Part shown: positions 2,242 through 16,266 of the stretch, in pieces
Layout: every line of letters starts with the position of its first letter
How positions within the stretch are numbered: the first letter of the stretch is position 1
Origin: Candidatus Pacearchaeota archaeon
GTDB taxonomy: Archaea > Nanobdellota > Nanobdellia > Pacearchaeales > GW2011-AR1
Reading direction: 5' to 3'
NCBI GenBank assembly: GCA_050303855.1
Contig: JBNLCO010000010.1
Span: forward strand, 124,093 to 188,092
DNA: 64,000 nucleotides
Translations under genes and position numbers: made by a program
The notes under the pieces: generated by a model
Seen by the model: the letters and a program-made list of their open reading frames with translations, nothing else
Told to the model about the DNA's origin: nothing
Databases searched by the model: none

Positions 2242-2949
2242 ATGAATTTCATAAAAAAAGTTGCTGATAAGCATTTTGATGAGTCTGTTCATTTGCAGTT
2301 TCAAAAATTCTCTAAAGGAGAGTTCAGAAATAGGGCTATAATTGAAGCTAAAAATTCTAAAGGAAAATATACAATCAAAACTTCTGCGGAATTCTCCAAT
2401 GAACTCGTTAGAGATGTTGCTGAAAAACTTGGAAGTAATAAATCAAAAATTACAGGAGCGATTGTTTCTACCTCTGATCTAAAGGGAGAGTTAGAATTTA
2501 AAGAAGTTAAGCAATTTCAAGGCGTTAAAAGATATTTGATTGATAGTGAAATGTCGGGCGAGGAGATTATCAAGTTATTGGATAAATTCCCAAAGAATTT
2601 CTTTGCACTTTCTTTCAAATTGGAAGATGGAACTGAACTTAAGATAAAACCCAAAGCTCCTAAATCAGGAAAACCGGGGAAGGGAGAGGAAGCTCCTAAA
2701 GCAGATTTCTGTGTTTTGAAAACCACAGATAAAGATTTAGCAGAAGGATTTATCTTTGAGCAACCAATGTTTAAGACTGCAAAGATTAATCATACTTTCT
2801 TTATTGATAAAATAGAGATACCAGAAGATTTGAAGAGTTCTAAAGATTTTGCAATGATAAGGGAAATGTCAAAAAGAATTGGGAGAATTATAAGAAATGC
2901 TGAAATTGATGATAAAAAGCTTGAGGAAGAATTGAGCTTTGAGGCTTAA
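2242..2949 (+). CDS. hypothetical protein (235 aa), no family recognised
   Basis: Clean ORF with its own TATA-like box. Lys/Glu-rich soluble protein with a central KPKAPKSGKPGKGEEAPK linker. Confidence 0.6.
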   Translation: MNFIKKVADKHFDESVHLQFQKFSKGEFRNRAIIEAKNSKGKYTIKTSAEFSNELVRDVAEKLGSNKSKITGAIVSTSDLKGELEFKEVKQFQGVKRYLIDSEMSGEEIIKLLDKFPKNFFALSFKLEDGTELKIKPKAPKSGKPGKGEEAPKADFCVLKTTDKDLAEGFIFEQPMFKTAKINHTFFIDKIEIPEDLKSSKDFAMIREMSKRIGRIIRNAEIDDKKLEEELSFEA

Positions 2950-3069
2950 ATGAGGATTAGGCCTTTATTTGCATGGTATGATTTTTGGGTTGGATTATTT
3001 TGGGATAAAAACAAGAAAATACTCTATTTCTTTCCTATTCCCATGTTTGGACTAAAGTTCGTGTTCTGA
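2950..3069 (+). CDS. 39-aa micro-ORF (MRIRPLFAWYDFWVGLFWDKNKKILYFFPIPMFGLKFVF), putative small hydrophobic protein
   Basis: Below the ORF-track length cutoff. Its ATG directly follows the TAA of the upstream gene (TAA|ATG). It is aromatic-rich with a WYDFWVG..FWDK..K.LYFFP pattern. Confidence 0.35.
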   Translation: MRIRPLFAWYDFWVGLFWDKNKKILYFFPIPMFGLKFVF

Positions 3070-3171
3070 TCTATGGGATCTACCCACACAAGGTTTATAA
3101 ACCGAAATTTTCTATGATTTATATTCCAGGGTAGGACAAAATGAGATCCGCATCATTGACAATTATAGAAA

Positions 3172-4128
3172 ATGCCAACAAGAAAATCACCAAGAAAAGG
3201 AAGCTTGCAATTTTGGCCTCGAAAGAGGATCAACAAATTTTTGCCTAGAGTTAACTGGAGTGCTATTAATTCTGATAAGAAATTGAAGGGATTTGTTGGA
3301 TATAAGGCAGGGATGGTTTCTGTTGAAGTTAAGGATTTAACTGCCAATTCAATGACTAAAGATAAGAAGATAATTATTCCGGCTACAGTTATTGAATGTC
3401 CTAAGATGAAAATCTTTTCGGTTAGATTCTACAAAAATGGGGTCGTTAAGAAGGATGTTTTAGCTGAACAATTCGACAAGGAACTTAAGAAAAAGGTTAA
3501 GGTTCCAAAAGAGAATAAATTGAAGCTTGATTCTGTAAAAAGTGAGAATTATGATGATGTTTCTGTTATTGCTTATACTGTTGTTAAGAAAACAGGATTG
3601 AAGAAGAAACCAGATATGGCTGAAATTGGTATTTCAGGTTCAAGTGTTGATGAGAAATTAAGTTTTGTTAAAGAGAATTTGAATAAAGAGTTGAGTGTTA
3701 CGGATTTATTCGCTTCAGGAGATTTAGTTGACTTTAGAGGTTTAACTAAAGGTAAAGGTCTTGTTGGTCCTGTAAAGAGATTTGGAATTACATTAAAAGC
3801 TCATAAGTCGGAGAAAGGTGTTAGAAGACCAGGTAATGTTGGTCCGTGGCATCCTGCAAGAGTTACTTTTAGAATCCCTATGGCAGGTCAATTAGGGAAG
3901 TTTACAAGAGTACATTATAATCAAAAAGTTATTGTAACTGGAAATGATGAAGAAGTTAAGAAATCTTTGAAAGCGATAAAGAACTATGGAAATGTTAACA
4001 TGGATTATGTTATTGTTTCTGGTTCAGTTCAAGGTCCAGCAAAGAGACAAGTGTTTATTACTGCTCCTTTGAGAAAAAGTAAAATGTCTGCAAAGAAGAA
4101 TTATGAATTCGGGAGAATATTGAGATAA
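3172..4128 (+). CDS. rpl3: 50S ribosomal protein uL3
   Basis: N-terminus MPTRKSPRKGSLQFWPRKR and the ...GKGLVGPVKRFG...GPWHPARV motifs; first gene of the S10-like cluster. Confidence 0.95.
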   Translation: MPTRKSPRKGSLQFWPRKRINKFLPRVNWSAINSDKKLKGFVGYKAGMVSVEVKDLTANSMTKDKKIIIPATVIECPKMKIFSVRFYKNGVVKKDVLAEQFDKELKKKVKVPKENKLKLDSVKSENYDDVSVIAYTVVKKTGLKKKPDMAEIGISGSSVDEKLSFVKENLNKELSVTDLFASGDLVDFRGLTKGKGLVGPVKRFGITLKAHKSEKGVRRPGNVGPWHPARVTFRIPMAGQLGKFTRVHYNQKVIVTGNDEEVKKSLKAIKNYGNVNMDYVIVSGSVQGPAKRQVFITAPLRKSKMSAKKNYEFGRILR

Positions 4129-4129
4129 A

Positions 4130-4375
4130 ATGGATATTGGAGAATCAATGGCGAAGAGAAAAATGATTGAAGAATTTAAGAAGTTAGAAATTGTAGCAGA
4201 AGCATTTTCTGAGGTTAAGGGGAATGTTGCTAAAGACAAAGATCTTGGGATGAGGATTGATGAAACAACAGAATTTCATTATAATATTAAAACAAATTAT
4301 GAAGAAGCAAAGGGAAAATTCGTTGGAGAAGATGGAATGCAATATGCTTTTGAAATAAGGAGATATAACGATTAA
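4130..4375 (+). CDS. ORFan A (81 aa) inserted between uL3 and uL4; acidic, no family recognised
   Basis: TAA-A-ATG junctions on both sides, identical to genuine r-protein junctions. By my count 18 D/E versus 14 K/R, so it is not r-protein-like. Confidence 0.6.
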   Translation: MDIGESMAKRKMIEEFKKLEIVAEAFSEVKGNVAKDKDLGMRIDETTEFHYNIKTNYEEAKGKFVGEDGMQYAFEIRRYND

Positions 4376-4376
4376 A

Positions 4377-5216
4377 ATGAAAACTAAAACATACGATTTA
4401 ACAGGGAAAGAAAAAGCAGAAATTGCATTACCCAAAGAATTTAGTTCTAAGGTAAGAGAAGATATTGTTTCTAAAGTTCTTGAAGCTGCAAAGAAACATC
4501 AACCTTACTCTCCAAGTCCTGTTGCAGGAAAACAACATTCTGCCAAAGGAAAGATTGTACATAGAAGACATGTTTGGAGAAGTGGTTATGGTAGAGGAGC
4601 ATCAAGAGTACCAAGAAAAATATTCTCACAGAAAGGTTCAAGATTTAATTGGGAAGCTGCAGAAGTTCCATTCGCAAGAGGCGGTATGAGAGCTCACCCT
4701 CCAAAGATAGAACACTTCTTAAAAGAACTTAAGATCAATAAGAAAGAATTAAAGATTGCTTTTGTATCTGCATTGAGTGCAACAGCTTCTGAAAAATATG
4801 TTGTTGATAAATATGCTACAGTAAATAAATTGAATAAAAAAGTGCCATTCATCTTAACTCTTGGAAATACTGAAAACTTGAAAGTTAAAGATTTACTTAA
4901 TGGTTTGAAAGGTATGCTTGGAGAAGAACTTTACAATATTGCAATAAAGAAAAAATCAATTAGGGCTGGAAAAGGAACAATGAGAGGTAGAAAATACAAA
5001 TCAAATGCAGGTATGCTTTTAGTTGTTGGAAAAGATGAAATTGGAAAAGTAAAAACTAAAATGTTTGAAGTTGTTTCGGCTGGAGAACTTGGAGTTACAG
5101 ATCTTGCCCGAGGAGGATTAGGAAGATTAACTGTTTATACTGAAAATTCTGTTAAAGAATTAGAAAATAAGTTTAATGGTAAAACTGAAAAGAAAGTGGA
5201 GGAAAAGAAAAAATGA
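4377..5216 (+). CDS. rpl4: 50S ribosomal protein uL4
   Basis: Contains ...HQPYSPSPVAGKQHSAKGKIVHRRHVWRSGYGRGASRVPRK...; position in the operon. Confidence 0.95.
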   Translation: MKTKTYDLTGKEKAEIALPKEFSSKVREDIVSKVLEAAKKHQPYSPSPVAGKQHSAKGKIVHRRHVWRSGYGRGASRVPRKIFSQKGSRFNWEAAEVPFARGGMRAHPPKIEHFLKELKINKKELKIAFVSALSATASEKYVVDKYATVNKLNKKVPFILTLGNTENLKVKDLLNGLKGMLGEELYNIAIKKKSIRAGKGTMRGRKYKSNAGMLLVVGKDEIGKVKTKMFEVVSAGELGVTDLARGGLGRLTVYTENSVKELENKFNGKTEKKVEEKKK

Positions 5217-5545
5217 ATAGTGTAGAAATTAAAGTTGTTGAAAATTGGGAAAAACCTGAAGTTTTCAGGACTTTAAAAGAAAAAGATTTGATAAGTGATA
5301 AAGAAGTTGTATTTGAATCCTTCAAGTTGAGAGGAGAAGGAACTTCTTTAATTCATACGCTCCAGAGAGTCAAGCCAGGAATTGTGAAGGTTAAAAAATA
5401 TTATTTTGAATCAGGTAAATTGAGCAGTAACGCAGGAGTGGATTATTGGACCAATTCACTGGATATAGGATATAATCCAGAAGCAAAATCAGATCAAATA
5501 CTTTATGATGCAGAAGATAAATTCCTAAGAGAGGCAGGATTATGA
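5213..5545 (+). CDS. ORFan B (110 aa) inserted between uL4 and uL23; no family recognised
   Basis: ATGA start/stop overlaps at both ends (5213-5216 and 5542-5545). GGAGG lies 10 nt upstream of its ATG (5198-5202). Confidence 0.6.
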   Translation: MNSVEIKVVENWEKPEVFRTLKEKDLISDKEVVFESFKLRGEGTSLIHTLQRVKPGIVKVKKYYFESGKLSSNAGVDYWTNSLDIGYNPEAKSDQILYDAEDKFLREAGL

Positions 5546-5778
5546 GACCAATAGCAACTGAAAAAGCAGTAATGAAAATTGAAGCAGAGAATGTAATGAC
5601 CTTTGAATTTGATAAAAGAATGAATAAAGAGGACATTAAGAAAGAAATTGAAGAGCTTTTAGATGTTAAAGTTGATTCGGTTAAAACGCAAATAAGAAAG
5701 AACAAGAAAATTGTTTACGCTAAATTAAATAAGAAGAACCTTGCAATTGATCTTGCAACTAAATTAGGAATGATGTAA
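5542..5778 (+). CDS. rpl23: 50S ribosomal protein uL23
   Basis: 78 aa, MRPIATEKAVMKIEAENVMTFEFDKRMNK...; operon position. Confidence 0.9.
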   Translation: MRPIATEKAVMKIEAENVMTFEFDKRMNKEDIKKEIEELLDVKVDSVKTQIRKNKKIVYAKLNKKNLAIDLATKLGMM

Positions 5779-5779
5779 A

Positions 5780-6478
5780 ATGGGAAAGAGAATAATACAA
5801 CAGGCACGGGGAAAGGGAAGTTCAACTTATAGAGTTAAGAGAAAAGCTTTCAGTCACAAAATCCAATATCCAAGAGGATTAACTGGAGAAGGAAGAATTG
5901 TAAAGTTATTCTTAACTGGTGGACATAGTGCTCCGCTTGCAAAGATAAACTGGTCTGGAGAGAGTTTTTATGTTCCTGCATTCAAAGGAATGGTTCAAGG
6001 AGAGAAGATTAATTTTGATTCAAAAGAAATTGTTAAAGGAAGTATCCTTGAGTTAGGAGATATTCCACTTAAGACAAAGATATTTTGCATTGAATCGAGA
6101 CCTGGAGATGGTGGAAAGTTCATAAAGACTGCAGGAAGTTCTGCAGAAGTTGTTAGAAGGGTCGGCAAAAATGTTCATGTATTAATGCCGTCGAAAAAAG
6201 AAAAACCTTTTAACCCGAAATGTCGGGCTATTATTGGTGAAGCTGCTGGTCATGGTAGAACAGACAAACCAATAATGAAAGCTGGAAAGCAACATCATAT
6301 TAAGAAAGCAAAAAGTAAATTATGGCCAAGAACAGGTGCATTGAAAGTTAATGCTATCGATCATCCTTTCGGTTCAGGTAGAGGAAAGAACCCTAAGAGC
6401 AAGATTGCAAAGAGAAATTCAGCTCCTGGTCAAAAGGTTGGTTTATTGAGACCAAGAAGGACAGGTAAGAGAAAGTAA
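5780..6478 (+). CDS. rpl2: 50S ribosomal protein uL2
   Basis: Contains MGKRIIQQARGKGSSTYR...AIDHPFGSGRGKN... Confidence 0.95.
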   Translation: MGKRIIQQARGKGSSTYRVKRKAFSHKIQYPRGLTGEGRIVKLFLTGGHSAPLAKINWSGESFYVPAFKGMVQGEKINFDSKEIVKGSILELGDIPLKTKIFCIESRPGDGGKFIKTAGSSAEVVRRVGKNVHVLMPSKKEKPFNPKCRAIIGEAAGHGRTDKPIMKAGKQHHIKKAKSKLWPRTGALKVNAIDHPFGSGRGKNPKSKIAKRNSAPGQKVGLLRPRRTGKRK

Positions 6479-6479
6479 A

Positions 6480-6848
6480 ATGGAAATGAAATTACAAACA
6501 ACTGGAATAAAGTATGAAAATCTAGTTGGAAAAGGATTAGAACTTTTTTGTGAAAGTGCGGTCAATAAAGATGAAAATGTTGTGGGAAGGTATCTTCCTG
6601 GAATTGAGGGACAAGAGATAACCTATTTAGGAAATTTAGGACATAGATTCGGAGAAAGAGATTTATTTGGATTTGAAGAAGACAATAAATTGACTGTCCT
6701 TGTTGGAAACATAAAAGACATTACTGGAAACAGGGCAACGTTAAGCACCTTTGTTCAAAGCATTTCCCCAAATTTTTACGGAACTGAAAATTTGAGTGAT
6801 GAGATTTTAAAACAATGCAAAGAGATTTTGTCAGGAGTAAAAGAATAA
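6480..6848 (+). CDS. ORFan C (122 aa) inserted between uL2 and uS19; no family recognised
   Basis: TAA-A-ATG junctions on both sides. Gly/Glu-rich, not basic. Confidence 0.6.
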   Translation: MEMKLQTTGIKYENLVGKGLELFCESAVNKDENVVGRYLPGIEGQEITYLGNLGHRFGERDLFGFEEDNKLTVLVGNIKDITGNRATLSTFVQSISPNFYGTENLSDEILKQCKEILSGVKE

Positions 6849-6849
6849 A

Positions 6850-7254
6850 ATGGTAGATATAGGATCACAAAAGAAACAATTCAAGTATCGAGGCAAAGAT
6901 ATTGAAGAGTTGAAGGCTTTAGATACTCGAGAGGTTGCAAAATACCTTGATTCGAGAGCTAGAAGAACTGTACTTAGAAACTTCCAAGAAATTGAGGATT
7001 TCCTTCAGAGAGCTAAGAGAAAACAATCAAAGAATAAGAAGATTAAAACTCATAAGAGAAAATTGATAGTTGTTCCTCAAATGGTTGGAATGCAAATCCA
7101 AGTACATAACGGAAGAATGTTTATTCCAATTGAGGTTGTCCCGGAGATGATCGGACATTATTTGGGAGAATTTTCATTAACAAGGGCAAAAGCTTCACAT
7201 AGTAAATCAGGAGTTGGTGCTACTAAGGGTAGTAGAGCCAAATCCAAGAAGTAA
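6850..7254 (+). CDS. rps19: 30S ribosomal protein uS19
   Basis: Contains ...IVVPQMVGMQIQVHNGRMFIPIEVVPEMIGHYLGEFSLTR... Confidence 0.95.
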   Translation: MVDIGSQKKQFKYRGKDIEELKALDTREVAKYLDSRARRTVLRNFQEIEDFLQRAKRKQSKNKKIKTHKRKLIVVPQMVGMQIQVHNGRMFIPIEVVPEMIGHYLGEFSLTRAKASHSKSGVGATKGSRAKSKK

Positions 7255-7259
7255 GTAAA

Positions 7260-7871
7260 ATGACAGAAAAACAATACGCTCCAAGTGCTAAAGAAAAGAA
7301 GATGTCTACAAAGAAAGTAGAATCCCCAGTAGCAGAAGCTCCTAAAAAGGTTGAAGCTAAAGAAAATAAAACTGAAGAGAAAAAAGTTGAAGAAAAGAAA
7401 ACAGAAGTAAAGCAACCTGTTAAAGTTACAAAAGTTAAGAAAGATCTTGCTGTAGTTAATGCAAACAATTCAAAAGTTTCATTAAAATATGCAATAAGCA
7501 TTTGTAAATTCATTAAAGGCAAAAGAATTGGCGATGCGATAAGAGATTTAGAAGCAGTTGTTGTTAAGAAAAAGGCAGTTCCAATGACTGGAGAGTATGC
7601 GCATAAGAAAAGTGTAAAGAAATATGCATCAGGTGCTGGAAAATACCCTGTTAATGCTGCAAAGGCTTTCCTTGTGTTGGTTAAAAGCCTTTTAGGAAAT
7701 GCTAATGCAAATGACATAAATGAACCTGTAATCACTGAATGTATTGCAAACAAAGCCCCCAAACCAATGGGAAGATTTGGAAGATGGGAAAGAAAAAGAT
7801 GCCACATCAAATTGGTTGCAAGAGAAATTAAAGTTAAAGAGAATAAAGCTAAGACAGAGGAAAAGAAATAA
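7260..7871 (+). CDS. rpl22: 50S ribosomal protein uL22 with an N-terminal Lys/Glu-rich extension of about 60 aa
   Basis: The core ...VSLKYAISICKFIKGKRIGDAIRDLEAVV... is preceded by MTEKQYAPSAKEKKMSTKKVESPVAEAPKKVEAKENKTEEKKVEEKKTEVKQ. Confidence 0.9.
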   Translation: MTEKQYAPSAKEKKMSTKKVESPVAEAPKKVEAKENKTEEKKVEEKKTEVKQPVKVTKVKKDLAVVNANNSKVSLKYAISICKFIKGKRIGDAIRDLEAVVVKKKAVPMTGEYAHKKSVKKYASGAGKYPVNAAKAFLVLVKSLLGNANANDINEPVITECIANKAPKPMGRFGRWERKRCHIKLVAREIKVKENKAKTEEKK

Positions 7872-7872
7872 A

Positions 7873-8565
7873 ATGGAAGAAAAACAAACTGTAAAATTCA
7901 AGAAGGAAGACTTTGCTATAAAGGAAATCATAAGAAAGACAATTGGAAAGGGAAAGATGAGCAGAGTTAGAATTGAATATACTCCGGTTGGAGAAAAAGT
8001 AATAATCTCCACAGATAAACCAGGTTTGGTTATTGGAAGGGGTGGAGAGAGTTTGAACGAATTAAGTGATATGCTTAGAAAGAATTTCAAATTCCAAAAT
8101 TTACATATTGAAATTGAAGAAATAAAAGAACCTGAATTTGACTCTCAAACTATTGCAGATGAGATTGCTTTAGGTTTAGAGAGAGCTGGACCATTAAAGT
8201 TCAAGGTTATTGCTTACAGAACACTTGAGAAAGTGATGAAAGCGGGAGCATTAGGTTGTGAAATAAGATTAAGCGGAAAACTTCCAAGTTCAAGAGCTAA
8301 GACATGGAGATTCGCTCAAGGATATTTAAAGAAAACAGGAGACTCTGCAAAGGTTGTAAGTCGTGCTCAAGCAAGAGCTGAGACTAAGCCGGGAACTGTG
8401 GGAGTTAAGGTTAGTATATTATCACCGCATGCAATATTGAAAGATAGAATAAAGATCAACGAAGATTTGATAAACCAGTTGAAAGAAAACGCTGAAAAAT
8501 TAAATGAAGTTCCAGAGAAGAAAACTAAGAAAAAAGCTAAGACTGCTAAGGAGAGTAAAAAATGA
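7873..8565 (+). CDS. rps3: 30S ribosomal protein uS3
   Basis: The track ORF starts at 7744, inside uL22. The in-frame ATG at 7873 (TAA-A-ATG junction) gives MEEKQTVKFKKEDFAIKEIIRK... with the KH-domain motif LVIGRGGESL. Confidence 0.9.
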   Translation: MEEKQTVKFKKEDFAIKEIIRKTIGKGKMSRVRIEYTPVGEKVIISTDKPGLVIGRGGESLNELSDMLRKNFKFQNLHIEIEEIKEPEFDSQTIADEIALGLERAGPLKFKVIAYRTLEKVMKAGALGCEIRLSGKLPSSRAKTWRFAQGYLKKTGDSAKVVSRAQARAETKPGTVGVKVSILSPHAILKDRIKINEDLINQLKENAEKLNEVPEKKTKKKAKTAKESKK

Positions 8566-8756
8566 AACACTCAGAAGTAAAGAAATTAAGTAAGACAGAC
8601 AGAGATAAGAAATTAAAAGAACTAAAGTTGGAATTAGTTAAAGAAAACGTATCAAAGCAAGGCGGAAATAAATCTGCTAAAATAAGAAAAATAATCGCAA
8701 GAATACACACACTCAACAACATGGAAAATAAACCCAAGGAGTTGAATAACAAATAA
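8562..8756 (+). CDS. rpl29: 50S ribosomal protein uL29
   Basis: 64 aa, MKHSEVKKLSKTDRDKKLKELKLELVK...; ATGA overlap with uS3. Confidence 0.9.
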   Translation: MKHSEVKKLSKTDRDKKLKELKLELVKENVSKQGGNKSAKIRKIIARIHTLNNMENKPKELNNK

Positions 8757-8760
8757 AACA

Positions 8761-9060
8761 ATGGAAATAGATCCAAAAACAGGATTGCCAGTTCAGGCAA
8801 TGGAGTGGGAAGACCTTGCAAAGGGTTCCCAAAAAATACGGGTAACGACCGATAAAAAAAGATACGGAAAGATCGTTACTCTAGTGAGTGGTTTCGACAA
8901 AGGAATCGACATAAAGAAAACCGCAAAGGCATTGAAGAATGAACTTGCGTGTGGCGGGACCTTTAAGGACGATGCAGTTGAACTGCAAGGAGACCACACA
9001 AAGAAAGTAAAGCAAGTCCTTGTAAAAATGGGATTTGACGAAAGCTCCATAGAAGACTGA
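8761..9060 (+). CDS. translation initiation factor SUI1 (aSUI1/eIF1 family)
   Basis: 99 aa, ...IRVTTDKKRYGKIVTLVSGFD...LKNELACGGTFKDDAVELQGDH... is the typical SUI1 core. Confidence 0.9.
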   Translation: MEIDPKTGLPVQAMEWEDLAKGSQKIRVTTDKKRYGKIVTLVSGFDKGIDIKKTAKALKNELACGGTFKDDAVELQGDHTKKVKQVLVKMGFDESSIED

Positions 9061-9078
9061 AGAGGTGAAAAATAAAAA

Positions 9079-9423
9079 ATGGAAAGTAAGAAAATGAAAA
9101 AAACAGAAGTAAAAGAATCAAAAATAGTTGGAACTGAAAAGAGTATAAACCCAAGAGGAAAGATCTTCGAGGGAGTTGTAACAGCAAAGTTCCACAAGAG
9201 AATAACAATCGAATTCGAAAGAATGGTTTATATTAGAAAGTATGAAAGATATGCAAAGTCGAAGACAAAAATCCATGCAAGACTCCCAGTTTCAATGGAA
9301 AACGAAGTTAATGTTGGAGATTTGATAAGAGTTCAAGAGTGTAGACCTTTAAGTAAGATAATCCATTTCATCGTGGTTAAGAAATTAAAAGATGCTTCAG
9401 AAATTTTAGGAGGAAAGAAATAA
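9079..9423 (+). CDS. rps17: 30S ribosomal protein uS17
   Basis: Contains ...RGKIFEGVVTAKFHKRITIEFERMVYIRKYERYAKSKTKIHA...VGDLIRVQECRPLSK... Confidence 0.92.
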   Translation: MESKKMKKTEVKESKIVGTEKSINPRGKIFEGVVTAKFHKRITIEFERMVYIRKYERYAKSKTKIHARLPVSMENEVNVGDLIRVQECRPLSKIIHFIVVKKLKDASEILGGKK

Positions 9424-9424
9424 G

Positions 9425-9826
9425 ATGAAAGCAATAAGTTCAAGAGCTACAGAAGGATTGAATTTGGGGGCAATAATGGTTGCTGCAGACAATAGTGGGG
9501 CTAAAGTTGTAAAATTAGTTTCGGTTAAGAAAGCTAAAGCTAAGAAGGGAAAACAAGTTGCTGGAAAGATTGCTGACTGGGTTAAAGTATCCGTAAGAAA
9601 AGGTGTTCCAGATATGAAAGGAAAAGTGTTTGATGCAGTAATAGTTAGACAGAAAAAACCATGGAGAAGGAATACGGGGGAGAGAGTTGCATTTGAAGAT
9701 AACGCTGTTGCAATCTTGAAAGACGATAAAGGTAATCCGAAAGGAACTCAAATTAAAGGACCAATTGCAAGGGAGGTTCAGGAGCGATGGCAATCTGTTG
9801 CTAAAATAGCTCAAACTGTTTATTAA
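9425..9826 (+). CDS. rpl14: 50S ribosomal protein uL14
   Basis: Contains ...MVAADNSGAKVVKLVSV...DAVIVRQKKPWRR... Confidence 0.95.
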   Translation: MKAISSRATEGLNLGAIMVAADNSGAKVVKLVSVKKAKAKKGKQVAGKIADWVKVSVRKGVPDMKGKVFDAVIVRQKKPWRRNTGERVAFEDNAVAILKDDKGNPKGTQIKGPIAREVQERWQSVAKIAQTVY

Positions 9827-9827
9827 A

Positions 9828-10325
9828 ATGAAGAACAAATTTTCAACAAAATGGAAGGCAAGTAAGAGACCTTCAAAGCAGAGAAAGTATTTAGCAAATG
9901 CTCCTTTACATATAAAGGCAAAACTAGTTAGCGTAAATCTTGCAAAACCTCTTAGAAAGACTTCAGAAAAGAGAAATGTTCCAGTAAGAAAGGATGACAA
10001 GGTAAAGATTATGAGAGGTAAATTCAAAGGGAAAGAAGGAAAGGTTTTGAGTGTAAGTACAAAATATTCAAAAGTAATTGTCGAAGGAATAACAATCAAG
10101 AAAATGGATGGTTCACAAGCAAATGTTCCATTAAAACCTTCAAACTTACAGATAATTGAGATGACAGATAGAAAACAAAAAGCAGTTTCTGAGAAGAAGA
10201 CTGAAGTAAAAAAAAGAGTCTCTGAAACAAAGTCTCAGGACTCATCCGCTGTAGCGACGTCGAACGAAACACCTAAAAAGGAAGTTAAAGAAGTAAAAGA
10301 TAAAGGTAAGGAGAATAAAAAATGA
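9828..10325 (+). CDS. rpl24: 50S ribosomal protein uL24 with a C-terminal K/E/S-rich tail
   Basis: KOW motif VRKDDKVKIMRGKFKGKEGKVLSV. The tail is ...EKKTEVKKRVSETKSQDSSAVATSNETPKKEVKEVKDKGKENKK. Confidence 0.92.
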   Translation: MKNKFSTKWKASKRPSKQRKYLANAPLHIKAKLVSVNLAKPLRKTSEKRNVPVRKDDKVKIMRGKFKGKEGKVLSVSTKYSKVIVEGITIKKMDGSQANVPLKPSNLQIIEMTDRKQKAVSEKKTEVKKRVSETKSQDSSAVATSNETPKKEVKEVKDKGKENKK

Positions 10326-10972
10326 AACATCTAAAGAGAGAAGTAGTACCAAAGAGTTGGCCAGTTCCAAGGAAAGGAACAACTTTTGTAGTTAGATCTA
10401 ACTCAAATCCTGAAAAGGGTGTTCCAATGTTGATATTCCTTAGAGATATGGTAAAGGTTTCTCAAAATAGAAAAGAAGTGAAGAGAGCTTTAGTTAACAA
10501 GAATATTCTAATTAATGGAAAATACGTTTCAGATGAGAAAAACGCAGTTGTATTACTTGATGTTGTTACAATTGTTCCATCAAAGAAATATTTCGTTCTT
10601 GATTTAACAGAAAACGGAAAGTTCGTTGCTAGAGAAATATCTGAGAAAGAGTCAATGAATAAAGTTTCAAAGATTACCGGAAAGAAATCTCTAAGAGGGA
10701 AGAAAACTCAAATTAATTTGATAGACGGAAGAAATTTCATCTCAAATGTAAAATGTGTAGTAGGAGATTCTGTTTTGATTGATTTCAAAGGAAATAAAAT
10801 TGAGAAATGTGTTCCATTGAAAGATAAAGCGAAAGTAATTATTTTTGCAGGAAAACACGCAGGAATGAAAGGAGAAATAGAAAAGATTGACGAGGAAAGA
10901 AAGATGGCTTCAGTGTCTTCAAATGGAGAAAAAATAAATGTTCTTGTTGAACAACTAATGGTAACAGAATAA
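10322..10972 (+). CDS. rps4e: 30S ribosomal protein eS4
   Basis: MKHLKREVVPKSWPVPRKGTTFVVRS...; an archaeal/eukaryotic-specific r-protein. Confidence 0.93.
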   Translation: MKHLKREVVPKSWPVPRKGTTFVVRSNSNPEKGVPMLIFLRDMVKVSQNRKEVKRALVNKNILINGKYVSDEKNAVVLLDVVTIVPSKKYFVLDLTENGKFVAREISEKESMNKVSKITGKKSLRGKKTQINLIDGRNFISNVKCVVGDSVLIDFKGNKIEKCVPLKDKAKVIIFAGKHAGMKGEIEKIDEERKMASVSSNGEKINVLVEQLMVTE

Positions 10973-10973
10973 A

Positions 10974-11492
10974 ATGGCAGAAGAAAAAACTGAAAAAGTA
11001 AACCCTATGAATGAGGTTAAAATTGAAAAGGTAGTTTTAAGCATAGGTGGGACTGGAGATTATTTGGATAGAGGTTACAGATTGTTGAAATATCTTACAG
11101 GAAAGAATCCTATGAAGACAAAGGCTCAGAAAAGAATTCCAGCATGGGGGGTTAGACCTGGTTTGGAAGTTGGAGCAACAGTAACATTAAGGAAAGATGC
11201 TATTGATTTTTTGAAGAGAATGTTGGTTACAATAGATAATAACTTGAAAAAGAAGCAAGTAAGTGAAAATAGTCTTTCATTTGGAATAAAAGAGTATATT
11301 GAAATACCTGATGTAGAATATCAAAGGGATATCGGTATAATGGGGTTCGATGTAACAATAACATTTAAGAGATCAGGAAGAAGAGTTAAATTAAGAAAGA
11401 TAAAATCTGGAAAAGTTGGAAAAAAACAGATTATAAAGAAGGAAGAAATAGTAAAATATATGGAGGATAATTTCGGAACGGAATTTATATAA
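10974..11492 (+). CDS. rpl5: 50S ribosomal protein uL5
   Basis: Contains ...NPMNEVKIEKVVLSIGGTG...FGIKEYIEIPDVEYQRDIGIMGFDVTI... Confidence 0.93.
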   Translation: MAEEKTEKVNPMNEVKIEKVVLSIGGTGDYLDRGYRLLKYLTGKNPMKTKAQKRIPAWGVRPGLEVGATVTLRKDAIDFLKRMLVTIDNNLKKKQVSENSLSFGIKEYIEIPDVEYQRDIGIMGFDVTITFKRSGRRVKLRKIKSGKVGKKQIIKKEEIVKYMEDNFGTEFI

Positions 11493-11493
11493 A

Positions 11494-11760
11494 ATGGCAA
11501 ATAAAATAACTTTAAAGAATAGGGAGAAATTGAGGGAAGAGCTTGAGAAGTTAGTTGTACAAGTTGATGAGATAAACGACTTCATGGGGCAGTTACCTCA
11601 TAACAATCATGGGCAGGCAACTAGGAGCTTAAACCCTAAGAAAGGTGAATATTTAAGTCACTTTGATGGAAATAGCGAAGGCATAGTTGGAAAATATCGT
11701 TCAAAAAATGGAGAGGTTTATACTATTAGCGTATCAAAAGAATACGGAGGTGGAAAATAA
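11494..11760 (+). CDS. ORFan D (88 aa) inserted between uL5 and uS14; no family recognised
   Basis: TAA-A-ATG junctions on both sides. N-terminal helical K/E segment, then PHNNHGQ and a C-terminal EYGGGK. Confidence 0.6.
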   Translation: MANKITLKNREKLREELEKLVVQVDEINDFMGQLPHNNHGQATRSLNPKKGEYLSHFDGNSEGIVGKYRSKNGEVYTISVSKEYGGGK

Positions 11761-11761
11761 A

Positions 11762-11992
11762 ATGACAGCAAGCAATTACGAAAAGATGTTGAAGCAATTA
11801 AGAAGCAAACCTGCAAAGATGCAGAGATACTTGAAGCACAATAAGCCAAAAACTAGAACTACTGGTAAGGCTTTGAGAAGATGTGAACAGACGGGACAAT
11901 TCGGAGGACACATAAAAATGTACGGATTGAACTTATGTAGACAGGCATTCAGAGAAATAGCGGAGGAATTAGGATTTAAGAAATACTCTTAA
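11762..11992 (+). CDS. rps14: 30S ribosomal protein uS14, a variant lacking two of the four zinc-ribbon cysteines
   Basis: The track ORF starts at 11687, inside ORFan D. The ATG at 11762 gives MTASNYEKMLKQLRSKPAK...RRCEQTGQFGGHIKMYGLNLCRQAFREIAEELGFKKYS. Confidence 0.88.
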   Translation: MTASNYEKMLKQLRSKPAKMQRYLKHNKPKTRTTGKALRRCEQTGQFGGHIKMYGLNLCRQAFREIAEELGFKKYS

Positions 11993-12006
11993 ATTGCAAA
12001 AGTAAA

Positions 12007-12387
12007 ATGAGTCACGATGTTGTAGCAGATGGATTGAATATGTTGAGAAATGCAGCTGTAGCTGGAAAAGAAACCGTGAAGATAAATAGAATCTCAAATG
12101 TTTTGATAGAAGTTCTTAAAATAATGAAGCAAGATGGAGCAATAAAGAAATATAAAATAGATTCTGAAGATAAATCTCTTACAGTTACAATAGACAAATT
12201 AGATGAATGTAAGGCAATAAAACCAAGATTCACTTGTGATGTTTCGCAAATAGAGAACTATAGAAGAAGATATCTTCCAGCAAGAGATGTTGGAACAATG
12301 ATACTTTCTACAAACAAAGGGTTAATGACTCACAAAGAGGCAACAGAAGAAAATATTGGAGGATGCCTAATTGCATATTTCTATTAA
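12007..12387 (+). CDS. rps8: 30S ribosomal protein uS8
   Basis: MSHDVVADGLNMLRNAAVAGKETV...GGCLIAYFY. Confidence 0.93.
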   Translation: MSHDVVADGLNMLRNAAVAGKETVKINRISNVLIEVLKIMKQDGAIKKYKIDSEDKSLTVTIDKLDECKAIKPRFTCDVSQIENYRRRYLPARDVGTMILSTNKGLMTHKEATEENIGGCLIAYFY

Positions 12388-12388
12388 A

Positions 12389-12931
12389 ATGAAAAAACCT
12401 TTATCAAAAATAATTGAAATTCCTGAAGGAGTGGAAGTTGCTCTAGATGGAAGAGATGTTAAGGTAAAAGGCCCAGAAGGAGAGATAACTAAAGATTTTG
12501 ATTTTGGGACTTTAGATATTGTTATCAAAGATGGAAAGATAGAATTAAGCCATAAAAGTGCAACAAAGACTGAAAAGAGAACAATGAATACTTTTGCAGC
12601 GCATATACTAAACATGATTAAAGGTGTTCAAGAGAAATTCGAATATACGCTTAAGGTTGCTTCAAGCCACTTCCCTATGACTGTGAAGGTAGAAGGAAAC
12701 ATTGCAACAATAAAGAATTATTACGGAGAAAAAACTGATAGAAAAACAAAAATTCCGAAAGGAGTTGAGGTAGAAGTTAACAAAGATTCAATTGTTGTTA
12801 AGTCTGTTGATAAAGAACTTGCAGGTCAGGCTGCAGCAAATTTCGAGAACGCTACAAAAGTTAGAAATAGGGATAGAAGAATTTTCCAAGATGGAATTTA
12901 CATAACTAAAAAACACGATAAAGCTATTTAA
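12389..12931 (+). CDS. rpl6: 50S ribosomal protein uL6
   Basis: The track start at 12371 is a TTG inside uS8. The ATG at 12389 (TAA-A-ATG) gives MKKPLSKIIEIPEGVEVALDGRDVKVKGPEGE... Confidence 0.92.
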   Translation: MKKPLSKIIEIPEGVEVALDGRDVKVKGPEGEITKDFDFGTLDIVIKDGKIELSHKSATKTEKRTMNTFAAHILNMIKGVQEKFEYTLKVASSHFPMTVKVEGNIATIKNYYGEKTDRKTKIPKGVEVEVNKDSIVVKSVDKELAGQAAANFENATKVRNRDRRIFQDGIYITKKHDKAI

Positions 12932-12936
12932 TTAAA

Positions 12937-13341
12937 ATGACCGAAAAGAAAAAACCAAATTTCAAGAGAAAGGACTCACACAAGTATTCTAAGCTTGGAA
13001 AGTCAAGAAAGAATAAACAGAAGTGGAAGAAACCTACTGGAAGAGATAACAAAATGCGTGAGAAGAAGAAGGGTCATCCAGCGGTTGTTTCAATAGGGTA
13101 TAAGACAAACACTTCAATAAGAGGAAAAGTGGAAGAAAAGAAACCAGTTTATGTTTACAACATCAAGGATTTGGAAAATGTAAACACAAATGAAATTGTA
13201 ATTGTTGGAAATGTTGGGATGAAGAAGAAAGTAGAAATTACAAAGGTTGCAAAAGAAAAGAAAATCAAAATAAAAAACATTAATGAGAAAAAATTAATGA
13301 AGAAAGTTAAGAAAAAAACAACTAAGGAGAGTAAAAAATGA
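12937..13341 (+). CDS. rpl32e: 50S ribosomal protein eL32
   Basis: Contains ...KQKWKKPTGRDNKMREKKKGHPAVVSIGYK... Confidence 0.9.
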   Translation: MTEKKKPNFKRKDSHKYSKLGKSRKNKQKWKKPTGRDNKMREKKKGHPAVVSIGYKTNTSIRGKVEEKKPVYVYNIKDLENVNTNEIVIVGNVGMKKKVEITKVAKEKKIKIKNINEKKLMKKVKKKTTKESKK

Positions 13342-13805
13342 ATTTGAGATCAAAGAAGGAGCTAGCTGCAAGAACATTCAAGGTTGGTAAAGAAAGAATT
13401 ACTTTCATTAAAGAAAGATTGGATGAAGTAAAAGAAGCTATAACTAAACAAGATATGATTGGTTTGGAGAAAGACGGAGCAATAAAGGTAAAGGAAGTAA
13501 GTGGGAGAAAGAAGGTACATACTGTAAGAAATAGAAGCCCAGGGAACGTAAGAAAGAAGGTTAACACTAGAAAAAGGGACTATGTTATCATGACTAGAAA
13601 GCTTAGACAACACGTTAGACACCTTAAATCCAATGGAGAATTAAGCCCTGAAGAAGTTAAAGAAATAAGAAAAAGAATAAGAAACAAAGGATTTAAGAGT
13701 AAAGCACATATGAAAGAACAGATAGCAACAAAGAATTATTCCTCTGTTCAAGTATCAGGAAAATCAAAAAATAAAAAAACTAAATCAAGTAAAAAGAAAA
13801 AATGA
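13338..13805 (+). CDS. rpl19e: 50S ribosomal protein eL19
   Basis: MNLRSKKELAARTFKVGKERITF...; ATGA overlaps at both ends. Confidence 0.92.
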   Translation: MNLRSKKELAARTFKVGKERITFIKERLDEVKEAITKQDMIGLEKDGAIKVKEVSGRKKVHTVRNRSPGNVRKKVNTRKRDYVIMTRKLRQHVRHLKSNGELSPEEVKEIRKRIRNKGFKSKAHMKEQIATKNYSSVQVSGKSKNKKTKSSKKKK

Positions 13806-14290
13806 AAGTACAAAAACGAAGAAGAAGAGAAAATAAGACAGACTATCTTAAGAGAATGAAGCTTCTTAAGAGCGCAAAGCCAAGAGTAGTATTCAGAAAA
13901 ACAAACAAATATGTTATTGCGCAATATGTTGTTAGTGATGAAGCTAAAGATAAAGTTGTATTTGGAGTAAGTTCAAAAGATTTGTTAAAGAAAGGTTGGG
14001 ATGAAAATGCTAAAGGATCTTTGAAGTCAATACCTGCAACATATTTAACAGGGTATTATGCTGGTAAAAAAATCTTGAAAGAAGGGCTTGAAACTCCAAT
14101 AGTGGATTTAGGTATGATAAAAACTTTACATAAAACAAAGGTTTTTGCTTTTATCAAAGGTTTAATTGATTCTGGAGTAGAAATTGGATCAAAAGAAGAA
14201 GCATTCCCTGAAGAAGAAAGAATAAATGGAGAAAGTTTAAAGAACAAGGTAGACATTCAAAAAATTAAATCAAGTTTAGATAAAGAATAA
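13802..14290 (+). CDS. rpl18: 50S ribosomal protein uL18
   Basis: MKVQKRRRRENKTDYLKRMKLLKSAKPRVVFRKTNKYVIAQYV... Confidence 0.92.
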   Translation: MKVQKRRRRENKTDYLKRMKLLKSAKPRVVFRKTNKYVIAQYVVSDEAKDKVVFGVSSKDLLKKGWDENAKGSLKSIPATYLTGYYAGKKILKEGLETPIVDLGMIKTLHKTKVFAFIKGLIDSGVEIGSKEEAFPEEERINGESLKNKVDIQKIKSSLDKE

Positions 14291-14291
14291 A

Positions 14292-15158: not shown

Positions 15159-15159
15159 A

Positions 15160-15522
15160 ATGAAAATCGCAGTAATAAGGATAAAAGGAATGGTTGGACT
15201 AAAAACAGACATAGCTGAGACTTTGGATAGATTAAGATTGAGAAGAAAATATGCGTGTGTGGTTATAGAAGATACACCAGAGAATTTAGGAATGATAAAG
15301 AAGGTTGGAGACTTTGTTGCACATGGCCCTATTGATGAAAAAACCTACAAAGAATTAGTTGATAAGAGAGGAAAGAAAGATTCTGAAGGCAAACTTAAAC
15401 CATTCTTTAGATTGCACCCTGCTAGAGGCGGAATGGAAACTAAAAAACACTTTGGAGTGGGTAAAGGAGTTTTAGGAAATAATAAAGATAAAATAAATGA
15501 ATTAATAGGGAGGATGTTGTGA
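15160..15522 (+). CDS. rpl30: 50S ribosomal protein uL30
   Basis: The track ORF starts at 15112, inside uS5. The ATG at 15160 (TAA-A-ATG) gives MKIAVIRIKGMVGLKTDIAETLDRLRLRRKYACVVI... Confidence 0.9.
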   Translation: MKIAVIRIKGMVGLKTDIAETLDRLRLRRKYACVVIEDTPENLGMIKKVGDFVAHGPIDEKTYKELVDKRGKKDSEGKLKPFFRLHPARGGMETKKHFGVGKGVLGNNKDKINELIGRML

Positions 15523-15523
15523 A

Positions 15524-15742
15524 GTGTCCGAGTACTATAAGGGCAAAAAAATTAATGGCGAGCTTATTTGCGGAGTGAGTGATCAGGGAAACTACAATCC
15601 TATAATTACAACCGTTTCAAAGTCAGAGGACGAGAATTTAAGGAATACTTATGTTCTCAAAGAAGACATCCTTGAGTTTGTCAAGGCCGATCCGCTAACA
15701 GACAAACAAGCTAGAAATTACATAAACAAATCAAAAAGATAA
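15524..15742 (+). CDS. ORFan E (72 aa, GTG start) inserted between uL30 and uL15; no family recognised
   Basis: TGA-A-GTG junction upstream and TAA-A-ATG downstream. Sequence MSEYYKGKKINGELICGVSDQGNYNPIITTVSK... Confidence 0.5.
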   Translation: MSEYYKGKKINGELICGVSDQGNYNPIITTVSKSEDENLRNTYVLKEDILEFVKADPLTDKQARNYINKSKR

Positions 15743-15743
15743 A

Positions 15744-16235: not shown

Positions 16236-16244
16236 TTTTAAAAA
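16236..16244 (+). promoter_or_regulatory. TATA-like box (TTTTAAAAA) about 27 nt upstream of the secY ATG
   Basis: It lies in the only sizeable spacer (31 nt) at the end of the r-protein string. The geometry matches the other leaderless promoters in the window. Confidence 0.5.
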
Positions 16245-16266
16245 CACTCTTTCTTAATTCTATACT

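What the first reader, a model, noticed from the sequence alone, without database searches (positions are those of the whole stretch)
5213..5545. ORFan B: a 110-aa ORF locked to uL4 and uL23 by ATGA overlaps at both ends
Its start overlaps the uL4 stop (ATGA at 5213-5216), with GGAGG 10 nt upstream at 5198-5202. Its own stop overlaps the uL23 start (ATGA at 5542-5545). With this double overlap, removing the ORF would require rebuilding both neighbouring junctions. That is strong circumstantial evidence that it is a fixed, expressed part of the operon. No family was recognised.
Basis: seen in the sequence. Interest (0 to 1): 0.55.

Follow-up and report, generated by a model that had tools for sequence, protein, structure and literature searches.

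The report
Stowaway gene inside a ribosomal-protein operon
The 110-codon ORF between the ribosomal-protein genes uL4 and uL23 is a real but dispensable, fast-evolving gene of a previously undescribed small-protein family that has so far been found only between ribosomal-protein genes of Pacearchaeota-like (DPANN) archaea, at several different gene junctions.

Summary
ORF 5213-5545 overlaps the uL4 stop and the uL23 start by ATGA, with GGAGG 10 nt upstream, and matches no Pfam or NCBIfam family.

It is not a fixed part of the operon. In 40 of 78 related loci, uL4 abuts uL23 through the same ATGA overlap. Only the nearest lineage has a homologue at this site, at about 31-40% identity against 83% for the flanking genes.

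It is not junk either. It belongs to a new family of about 12 proteins of 87-111 aa, and the AlphaFold2 model is confident (pLDDT 79.5) with no fold match. Every member whose neighbours could be identified lies between ribosomal-protein genes, at four junctions: uL3|uL4, uL4|uL23, uL22|uS3 and uS5|uL30. One more lies in a tandem array flanked by identical 55-nt fusions of the uL23 5' end and the uL4 3' end. The gene tree disagrees with junction position.

The family evolves 5-20 times faster than its flanks (omega 0.5-1.0 versus 0.05-0.08), yet the frame stays open and each 3' end encodes the Shine-Dalgarno site (SD) for the downstream gene.

Across the 80 related loci plus the window, about 170 such inserts occur, and 152 of 166 are filled end to end by one coupled ORF. 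Best reading: a translationally coupled accessory "passenger" cassette. Its function is unknown.

The parts
4377..5216 (+). uL4 gene. Its lysine-rich C-terminal tail (..GKTEKKVEEKKK) carries the SD for ORFan B.
   Evidence: Pfam Ribosomal_L4 5.5e-17. The clade consensus C-terminus is ..YTEKAIKELGEKLK*. The window tail is longer and differs from this consensus.
5198..5202 (+). GGAGG Shine-Dalgarno site for ORFan B, inside the uL4 coding sequence, 10 nt before the ATG
   Evidence: Sequence read. All family members have a G-rich block 7-12 nt upstream of the start.
5213..5216 (+). ATGA overlap: ORFan B start codon / uL4 stop codon
5213..5545 (+). ORFan B: 110 aa, pI 5.5, member of a new small-protein family. 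Conserved N-terminal motif KV(I/V)ENWK..E.VF..L..D.I..EVVFE.F, a beta-meander, and a C-terminal helix (E/L)Y(N/D)..(D/N)KFL.EAGL*.
   Evidence: Homologues. AF2 model pLDDT 79.5, pTM 0.73. No Pfam, NCBIfam, PADLOC, PHROGs or PDB match. GC, GC3 and CAI are like the neighbours, and there is no run of 5 or more T.
5529..5534 (+). GAGAGG Shine-Dalgarno site for uL23, encoded by the R-E-A codons of the conserved C-terminus of ORFan B, 7 nt before the uL23 ATG
   Evidence: Every family member has the same arrangement (GAGG, GGAG or AGGG 7-10 nt before the downstream ATG), whichever gene follows.
5542..5545 (+). ATGA overlap: uL23 start codon / ORFan B stop codon
5542..5778 (+). uL23 gene. Its translation is predicted to depend on termination of ORFan B.
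   Evidence: Pfam Ribosomal_L23 5.5e-13. Strict coupling at ATGA overlaps was shown experimentally in an archaeon (PMC6728339).
4130..4375 (+). ORFan A (81 aa, uL3|uL4): same class of coupled junction insert, not related to B by sequence
6480..6848 (+). ORFan C (122 aa, uL2|uS19): same class of insert
11494..11760 (+). ORFan D (88 aa, uL5|uS14): same class of insert
15524..15742 (+). ORFan E (72 aa, GTG start, uL30|uL15): same class of insert

Best explanation
ORFan B is a genuine, translated, accessory gene. It is one member of a previously undescribed, fast-evolving family of roughly 100-110-aa acidic soluble proteins. This family exists as 'passenger cassettes' wedged precisely into gene junctions of the ribosomal-protein supercluster of Pacearchaeota/Woesearchaeota-type DPANN archaea.

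How it works (shown or inferred):
(1) Shown in sequence: the cassette has no visible signals of its own. Its SD lies in the tail of uL4 and its start overlaps the uL4 stop. Its last codons encode the SD for uL23 and its stop overlaps the uL23 start.
(2) Inferred from published experiments on ATGA pairs: ribosomes terminating uL4 reinitiate on ORFan B, and ribosomes terminating ORFan B reinitiate on uL23. The passenger therefore gets ribosomal-protein-level expression. Any premature stop or frameshift in it would be polar on uL23 and the genes beyond. This keeps the frame open and the two ends conserved while the middle evolves almost freely.
(3) Shown: the family is patchy. It sits at four or more different junctions, and its gene tree disagrees with junction position and with genome relatedness.
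(4) Inferred: cassettes are gained, lost, replaced and moved between junctions by recombination through the short, similar junction sequences (SD + ATGA + AAA, plus the ends of flanking genes). The tandem array flanked by identical uL23-5'/uL4-3' fusion repeats supports this.
(5) The biochemical role of the protein is not known. The predicted compact beta-sheet-plus-helix fold and the conserved core argue that the protein is folded and used. Its acidity, patchiness and rate argue for a non-ribosomal accessory role, possibly conflict-related.
For: Anatomy.

Homologues: P0002, P0003, P0004, P0005, P0007 and P0008, plus P0009-P0013 (alignments).

Genomic contexts:
- uL4|uL23: window and L002/L090/L091.
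- uS5|uL30: L086, L087.
- uL22|uS3: L088, L092.
- uL3|uL4: L037, L044, L093-L095.
- Array with 100% identical 55-nt repeats made of the uL23 start fused to the uL4 end: L082-L085.

No family member was found outside such a context, although the protein searches were blind to context.

Gene tree: the window gene groups with the uS5|uL30 members (bootstrap 100). The L002 gene groups with the uL22|uS3 member (bootstrap 78).

Evolutionary rates: in close strains, flanks have dS 0.2-0.3 and omega 0.05-0.08, while the insert has dS 0.18-0.38 and omega 0.5-1.0, with the ORF intact in all four. Window versus L002: flank dN about 0.1, ORFan B dN 0.66-0.88. Pooled pN/pS is 0.54 for the N-terminus, 0.92 for the middle and 0.73 for the C-terminus.

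Fold: AF2 pLDDT 79.5.

Clade-wide pattern: about 170 inserts in the related loci. 152 of 166 are filled by one coupled ORF with spacing of -4 or +1 nt, and 102 of 117 sequence clusters are singletons.

Coupling at ATGA overlaps is strict in 13 of 14 tested pairs, including archaeal ones (PMC6728339).
Against: There are no expression, proteomic or ribosome-profiling data. Omega near 1 in close strains is also what a functionless translated spacer would show. The family is small (about 12 sequences) and several contexts come from contigs of 0.5-3 kb. The L082-85 array is not physically linked to intact uL4 and uL23 genes. Ancient paralogues at several junctions followed by differential loss could mimic mobility. 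No recombinase, attC-like site or clear target-site duplication was found at ORFan B itself. The second AF2 model, for the uL3|uL4 subfamily, was uninformative (pLDDT 40). Membership of L044 rests on a weak HMM match (E about 0.01-0.06).
Confidence: 0.6

Rival explanations
1. Functionless translated connector. The ORF is kept open only because uL23 must be reached by termination-reinitiation. The polypeptide has no role and is degraded. The conserved ends are nucleic-acid signals (initiation region, SD, ATGA), not protein features.
For: Omega is 0.5-1.0 in close strains with intact frames. The middle third has pN/pS of 0.92. The conserved C-terminus coincides with the downstream SD and ATGA in every member. 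In relatives, short mini-ORFs with no plausible protein function do the same coupling job. 40 of 78 genomes do without any insert here.
Against: Homology is still detectable between genomes whose ribosomal proteins are only 45-75% identical, which needs a long-term omega well below 1. The N-terminal motif (W12, N11, F18, L21, D25, V33) is conserved at amino-acid level despite synonymous differences. AF2 gives a confident compact fold from only 6 sequences. A 15-20-codon mini-ORF would do the coupling job more cheaply than 110 codons.
Confidence: 0.2
2. Lineage-specific ribosomal protein or ribosome-biogenesis factor, co-expressed with uL4 and uL23 because it works on the ribosome. This would repeat history: unknown ORFs in archaeal ribosomal-protein operons later proved to be eS4, eL32, eL19, SUI1 or RNase P subunits (my own knowledge, not checked here).
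For: The family is found only inside ribosomal-protein operons. Tight coupling implies near-stoichiometric synthesis with ribosomal proteins.
Against: The protein is acidic (pI 5.5, against about 10 for all ribosomal proteins of the window). It is absent from most relatives, including 40 of 78 with a tight uL4|uL23 junction. Its position varies. Its rate is 5-20 times that of ribosomal proteins. There is no Pfam or NCBIfam ribosomal hit and no fold match to any solved ribosomal component.
Confidence: 0.1
3. Hypervariable conflict protein (immunity, anti-defence or effector-type) that uses the ribosomal operon as a high-expression platform and is under diversifying selection. This is a functional refinement of the best explanation.
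For: High omega concentrated between conserved core blocks. The protein is small, acidic and soluble. Cassette content at junctions is extremely diverse, with 102 singleton clusters among 162 inserts. Replacement occurs between close genomes: at three of the four junctions occupied in both genomes, the window and L002 inserts show no detectable similarity.
Against: There is no hit in PADLOC, PHROGs, the viral structure library, phage or plasmid records, or viral contigs. No partner gene is evident. Positive selection was not formally tested.
Confidence: 0.08
4. Chance ORF or annotation/assembly artefact, for example a frameshifted extension of uL4 or uL23.
For: No database family; only itself was found by the word-index search.
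Against: An independent assembly gives the identical protein. Homologues show the same double coupling. The chance of a 110-codon open frame is about 3e-5. The three genes are in three frames. No uL4 or uL23 of any relative carries a homologous extension.
Confidence: 0.02

Closest known systems
Integron gene cassettes, including the archaeal integrons reported in DPANN and other archaea (PMC9668308)
   Same: Both are small, promoterless, same-orientation, mostly ORFan genes. Both are highly variable between close genomes and are expressed from an upstream resident promoter. One related locus shows a tandem array of unrelated ORFs separated by identical short repeats.
   Different: No attC-like imperfect palindrome flanks ORFan B, and no integrase was identified. 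The platform is the essential ribosomal-protein operon itself, with cassettes interleaved between essential genes. Expression is by stop/start overlap, and the cassette supplies the SD for the next resident gene. The repeats in the array are fusions of resident gene ends (uL23 5' + uL4 3'), not attC.
Phage 'morons' and accessory ORFans inserted between conserved core genes
   Same: Dispensable extra genes sit between conserved syntenic genes, with a patchy distribution and fast turnover.
   Different: Morons usually carry their own promoter and terminator. Here none is evident and the host is a cellular ribosomal operon. No viral relatives were found.
Translationally coupled ATGA gene pairs (termination-reinitiation; PMC6728339, PMC10666635)
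   Same: There is a 4-nt stop/start overlap with an SD inside the upstream gene, at both ends of ORFan B.
   Different: Coupled pairs usually encode subunits of one complex. Here an unrelated, dispensable gene has been interposed between two ribosomal-protein genes that in most relatives are themselves directly coupled by ATGA.
Extra ORFs of archaeal ribosomal-protein operons that turned out to be eS4, eL32, eL19, SUI1 or RNase P subunits (my own knowledge)
   Same: Unknown small ORFs embedded in the S10/spc-like cluster.
   Different: Those are conserved across archaea, basic, and at fixed positions. ORFan B is none of these.

Membership tests
Universal/archaeal ribosomal proteins | Match to a ribosomal-protein family model | tested here: not met
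   No Pfam or NCBIfam hit. No PDB sequence or fold match to a ribosomal component.
Universal/archaeal ribosomal proteins | Conserved presence and fixed position in related genomes | tested here: not met
   40 of 78 relatives have uL4 abutting uL23. The family occurs at four or more different junctions.
Universal/archaeal ribosomal proteins | Basic, RNA-binding composition and slow evolution | tested here: not met
   pI 5.5 against about 10. dN is 5-20 times that of the flanks.
Universal/archaeal ribosomal proteins | Physical presence in the ribosome | not testable with these tools
   Needs ribosome purification and mass spectrometry, or cryo-EM.
Integron gene cassette | attC recombination site (imperfect inverted repeat) at the 3' end of the cassette | tested here: not met
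   The repeat finder on 5100-5700 shows only weak internal inverted repeats and none flanking the ORF. There is no excess RNA or ssDNA-type structure (z = -0.26).
Integron gene cassette | Adjacent IntI tyrosine recombinase with attI and Pc | not tested
   The window ORFs were not screened systematically for recombinases. None lies within the ribosomal cluster 2242-17661.
Integron gene cassette | Promoterless ORFs in one orientation forming variable arrays | tested here: met
   All 162 inserts are on the operon strand and variable between genomes. A tandem array occurs in L082-85.
Known anti-phage defence / toxin-antitoxin components | Match to a PADLOC model or a TA fold | tested here: not met
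Viral or plasmid gene (moron-like import) | Relatives in viral or plasmid sequence collections | tested here: not met
   No match in IMG/VR contigs, BFVD, PHROGs, INPHARED phages or PLSDB plasmids.
DEDD exonuclease that occupies uL4|uL23 in 17 relatives | Profile similarity to that family (degraded remnant hypothesis) | tested here: not met
   hhalign probability 0.7%.
Structured RNA element / ribosomal-protein leader | Rfam match or unusually stable fold | tested here: not met
   No Rfam match at E <= 1 in 2900-17000. Fold z-score -0.26.

The most novel reading that the evidence does not exclude
The gene junctions of the ribosomal-protein supercluster in Pacearchaeota-type DPANN archaea act as a cassette-capture and shuffling platform. 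Small promoterless ORFs, the ORFan B family among them, and a dedicated roughly 50-nt element that preserves coupling are inserted at gene starts. The short elements duplicate the first codons of the downstream gene; this signature is weak for the large ORF inserts and absent at ORFan B itself. The inserts are expressed purely by termination-reinitiation. They hop between junctions and are held in place by polarity on essential downstream genes. This would be an integron-like system without attC or IntI, living inside the most conserved operon of the cell, and a possible nursery for new proteins.
Probability: 0.4. Interest if true: 0.85.

Novelty: new variant of a known kind. Interest (0 to 1): 0.68.

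Why it matters
Ribosomal-protein operons are treated as the most stable, vertically inherited part of prokaryotic genomes, and they are the backbone of phylogenomic marker sets. This work finds that, in one large DPANN clade, these operons are peppered with hypervariable, translationally coupled ORFan genes, one family of which occupies at least four different junctions. Three things would follow:
(a) There would be a new mode of accessory-gene carriage, in which the gene is expressed and retained through coupling to essential genes.
(b) It would give a tractable natural system for studying how new small proteins arise, persist and diverge.
(c) Binning and annotation pipelines that assume contiguous ribosomal-protein genes would need caution.
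For ORFan B itself, it defines a new protein family with a confidently predicted fold that matches nothing solved.

Tried and rejected
- Word-index homology search: found only the query itself.
- Pfam, NCBIfam, PADLOC, PHROGs and a PDB-sequence profile search: no consistent hit.
- Degraded remnant of the DEDD exonuclease found at the same junction in relatives: rejected by hhalign.
- RNA element on either strand: no Rfam hit and no excess structure.
- Frameshifted extension of uL4 or uL23: rejected, because an independent assembly is identical, the three genes use three frames, and no relative has a homologous extension.
- Foreign origin judged from composition: GC, GC3 and CAI are indistinguishable from the neighbours.
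- Viral or plasmid origin: no matches.
- attC-like or TSD-like repeats at ORFan B: none are convincing. A 14/16 direct repeat links 5440-5455 to the junction at 5537-5552, but it is of marginal significance.
- Start-of-gene duplication for the large inserts: only a weak signal (6.3% versus 1.3%), in contrast to the strong signal for the mini-ORFs.
- AF2 on the uL3|uL4 subfamily alone: pLDDT 40, uninformative.
- First metagenome scan with the full alignment: failed for lack of a conserved stretch. The repeat with a 3-sequence alignment added only same-species loci.
- Literature searches: found no description of junction inserts in DPANN ribosomal operons.
- P0006 (1745 aa, E = 1.9e-4, a 23-residue repeated stretch): disregarded as a low-complexity match.

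Full report
OBSERVATION. The window carries an archaeal-type ribosomal-protein supercluster on the + strand, in AT-rich DNA (33% GC). It runs from uL3 (3172-4128) to uL15 (15744-16235) and SecY (16267-17661). ORF 5213-5545 (110 aa) starts with an ATG that overlaps the TGA of uL4 (4377-5216). It ends with a TGA that overlaps the ATG of uL23 (5542-5778). GGAGG lies at 5198-5202, 10 nt before the start. In addition, the last codons of the ORF (GAGAGG, 5529-5534) form the Shine-Dalgarno site (SD) of uL23. An independent assembly encodes the identical protein in the same context, and the three genes are in three different frames, so a frameshift artefact is excluded. Pfam and NCBIfam find nothing. 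Four further unassigned ORFs sit at other junctions of the same cluster: 4130-4375, 6480-6848, 11494-11760 and 15524-15742.

IS IT FIXED IN THE OPERON? I used uL2 as a probe and fetched 80 loci from Pacearchaeota/Woesearchaeota/Nanoarchaeota MAGs, with 64-83% uL2 identity. I mapped all ribosomal-protein genes on them. At uL4|uL23, 40 of 78 loci have uL4 and uL23 overlapping directly by ATGA, which looks like the ground state. Another 14 have a short spacer. Another 17 carry a DEDD 3'-5' exonuclease of about 210 aa (Pfam RNase_T). Only 7 have a small ORF.

IS IT JUNK? No. An exhaustive HMMER scan of 1.8 billion representative proteins found P0002 (109 aa, 40% identity, E = 1e-9), P0003 (a fragment), P0004 and P0005. 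Profile searches added P0007, the ORF at the same junction of the closest genome L002, and P0008. After HMM iteration on the junction inserts, a second subfamily emerged: P0009-P0013. The alignments show three shared features:
- a conserved N-terminal block, KV(I/V)ENWK..E.VF..L..D.I..EVVFE.F;
- an alternating hydrophobic middle;
- a C-terminal helix, (E/L)Y(N/D)..(D/N)KFL.EAGL.

WHERE DO FAMILY MEMBERS LIVE? The protein searches were blind to genomic context. Even so, every member whose neighbours could be identified lies between ribosomal-protein genes, at different junctions:
- uL4|uL23: the window and L002/L090/L091.
- uS5|uL30: L086 and L087.
- uL22|uS3: L088, plus a probably frameshifted copy in L092. 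The last 37 residues of the L092 copy are 67% identical (78% at DNA level) to ORFan B, in a genome whose uS3 is 81% identical to the window's.
- uL3|uL4: L037, L093, L094, L095 and, weakly, L044.
P0002 (L082-L085, four independent assemblies) lies in a tandem array of at least three unrelated ORFs. The ORFs are separated by 100% identical 55-nt repeats. The first 24 nt of the repeat are the start of uL23 (ATGAAACCGATAGCAACTGAAAAA, MKPIATEK). The rest matches the clade's uL4 3' end (AATTAAAGAATTA....IKEL..), and the two are fused at the 'TEKA' codons that both genes share. This is the junction expected from duplication or single-crossover integration of a 'uL4-end/cassette/uL23-start' segment. 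An NJ tree places the window gene with the array and uS5|uL30 members (bootstrap 100). The gene at the same junction in the closest genome (L002) groups with the uL22|uS3 member (bootstrap 78). Gene tree, junction and genome relatedness therefore disagree. This points to movement or replacement between junctions, although ancient paralogy with differential loss is not excluded.

HOW FAST DOES IT EVOLVE? Between the window and L002, flanking ribosomal proteins have dN of about 0.1, dS of about 1 and omega of about 0.1. ORFan B has dN of 0.66-0.88. The cleanest case is four close strains with the uL3|uL4 subfamily. Their flanks are 93-95% identical at DNA level, with dS 0.2-0.3 and omega 0.05-0.08. 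The insert has a similar dS (0.18-0.38) but dN of 0.10-0.37, giving omega of 0.5-1.0, and the frame is intact in all four. Within the ORFan B subfamily the N-terminus is the most constrained and the middle the least (pooled pN/pS 0.54, 0.92 and 0.73 for N-terminus, middle and C-terminus). In every member, whichever gene follows, the last codons contain GAGG, GGAG or AGGG 7-10 nt before the downstream ATG, and the stop overlaps or abuts that ATG.

THE WIDER PATTERN. In the 80 related loci plus the window, junction inserts of 150-800 bp occur about 170 times. Frequencies are 26/73 at uL3|uL4, 21/62 at uL14|uL24, 17/82 at uL23|uL2, 15/79 at uL2|uS19, 13/77 at uL22|uS3 and 13/52 at uS14|uS8. They never occur at uL6|eL32, eL32|eL19 or eL19|uL18. 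In 152 of 166 cases one same-strand ORF fills at least 90% of the gap, with spacing of -4 or +1 nt to both neighbours. By BLASTP the 162 ORFs fall into 117 clusters, 102 of them singletons, and another family also spans four junctions. The window and L002 both have inserts at uL3|uL4, uL4|uL23, uL2|uS19 and uL5|uS14, but only the uL4|uL23 pair is detectably homologous (z = 9.8 versus at most 1.2).

MECHANISM. Shown: the anatomy of double coupling; the patchy, multi-junction distribution; the fast evolution with preserved frame and ends. From established knowledge: ATGA pairs are translated by termination-reinitiation, and coupling was strict in 13 of 14 tested pairs, including nine from an archaeon (PMC6728339). 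Inferred: ORFan B is translated by ribosomes coming off uL4, and uL23 is translated by ribosomes coming off ORFan B. A nonsense or frameshift mutation in the passenger would therefore starve uL23 and the genes beyond. That explains the intact frames despite near-neutral protein evolution, and it explains why loss requires a precise deletion. Also inferred: gain and movement occur by recombination through the short, similar junction sequences and the ends of flanking genes.

WHAT THE PROTEIN DOES IS UNKNOWN. The folded core and long-term recognisability argue for some use. The acidity, dispensability and rate argue against a structural ribosomal role. I put 0.6 on the 'coupled accessory passenger cassette' reading, 0.2 on a functionless connector, 0.1 on a ribosome-associated factor, 0.08 on a conflict-type hypervariable protein, and 0.02 on an artefact.

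COMPARISON WITH KNOWN SYSTEMS. The behaviour resembles integron cassettes: promoterless, one orientation, ORFan-rich, variable, sometimes in arrays. Archaeal integrons are known (PMC9668308). However, the defining attC site is absent and no integrase was found. The platform is an essential operon, and expression is by stop/start overlap. It also resembles phage morons, but it has no signals of its own and no viral relatives. Literature searches found no description of this phenomenon. I therefore file ORFan B as a new protein family and the arrangement as a new variant of accessory-cassette carriage. I give a 0.4 chance that a dedicated junction-targeting insertion mechanism underlies it.

Noticed in passing
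Relatives, e.g. L017:757-808 (uL4|uL23) and L017 uS17|uL14; L018 (three junctions); L080:~150-205; L002:~11850-11910 (uL24|eS4). Not present in the window.: A recurrent element of about 46-57 nt lies between ribosomal-protein genes. It encodes a mini-ORF, M(K/R/T)(A/V)NQRFSFI(R/Q)K..GG(Y/N)F(K/E)*, coupled by ATGA at both ends. It occupies at least 9 different junctions in many genomes, always in forward orientation. L017 has identical copies at two junctions. Overall, 88 of 148 short spacers are doubly coupled mini-ORFs. Their first codons copy the start of the downstream gene: an exact run of 4 or more nt after the ATG in 32% against 4.6% of controls (p = 3e-14). This is a signature like a target-site duplication, and the element looks like a junction-specific, MITE-like element that preserves coupling.
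   Followed up: partly
L082:476-537 and 861-874; L085:1-50 and 374-433; also L083, L084: A tandem array of at least three unrelated small ORFs (116 aa, the ORFan B homologue P0002, and one of 67+ aa). The ORFs are separated by 100% identical 55-nt repeats that are in-frame fusions of the uL23 5' end (MKPIATEK) and the uL4 3' end (IIKELKKWGGRNE). Contigs from four samples break at these repeats.
   Followed up: partly
L006, L020, L021, L028, L031, L036, L040, L042, L044, L047, L050, L055, L060, L066, L072, L073, L076 (uL4|uL23 junction): A conserved DEDD 3'-5' exonuclease of about 200-245 aa (Pfam RNase_T / Rv2179c-like) is inserted between uL4 and uL23 in 17 of 78 related loci, usually with ATGA overlaps. 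It is unrelated to ORFan B.
   Followed up: partly
window 4130-4375, 6480-6848, 11494-11760, 15524-15742: The four other junction ORFans of the window have no Pfam or NCBIfam family. At the junctions that both genomes have occupied, they show no detectable similarity to the inserts of the closest genome L002 (SW z <= 1.2). This implies replacement, or divergence beyond recognition, within a clade whose ribosomal proteins are about 83% identical.
   Followed up: partly
All loci, junctions uL6|eL32, eL32|eL19, eL19|uL18 (window 12931-13805): These three junctions never carry an insert (0/43, 0/39, 0/23), whereas neighbouring junctions carry one in 15-35% of genomes. The reason is unknown.
   Followed up: no
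window 8539-8566, 10299-10326, 13315-13342: Three different gene junctions (uS3|uL29, uL24|eS4, eL32|eL19) share a nearly identical motif of about 22-28 nt, A(A/C)TAAGGAGAGTAAAAAATGAA: SD + spacer + ATGA, encoded in the lysine-rich C-terminal tails of the upstream genes. Such similarity could provide microhomology for recombination between junctions.
   Followed up: no
window 5440-5455 vs 5537-5552: GGATTATTGGACCAAT inside ORFan B is a 14/16 direct repeat of the ORFan B/uL23 junction GGATTATGAGACCAAT, 97 nt downstream. It lies at the point where the ORFan-B-like 37-aa fragment of L092 begins. Its statistical significance is marginal.
   Followed up: partly
L013 (DATKUW010000029.1): This record is titled 'Bacillota bacterium' but carries an archaeal Pacearchaeota-type ribosomal-protein operon, with uL2 70% identical to the window's. 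The contig is probably mis-binned.
   Followed up: no
L084:470-732: After the first 11 nt of the downstream repeat, this contig diverges into higher-GC sequence unrelated to L082 and L085. It may be a chimeric assembly or a different insertion context.
   Followed up: no
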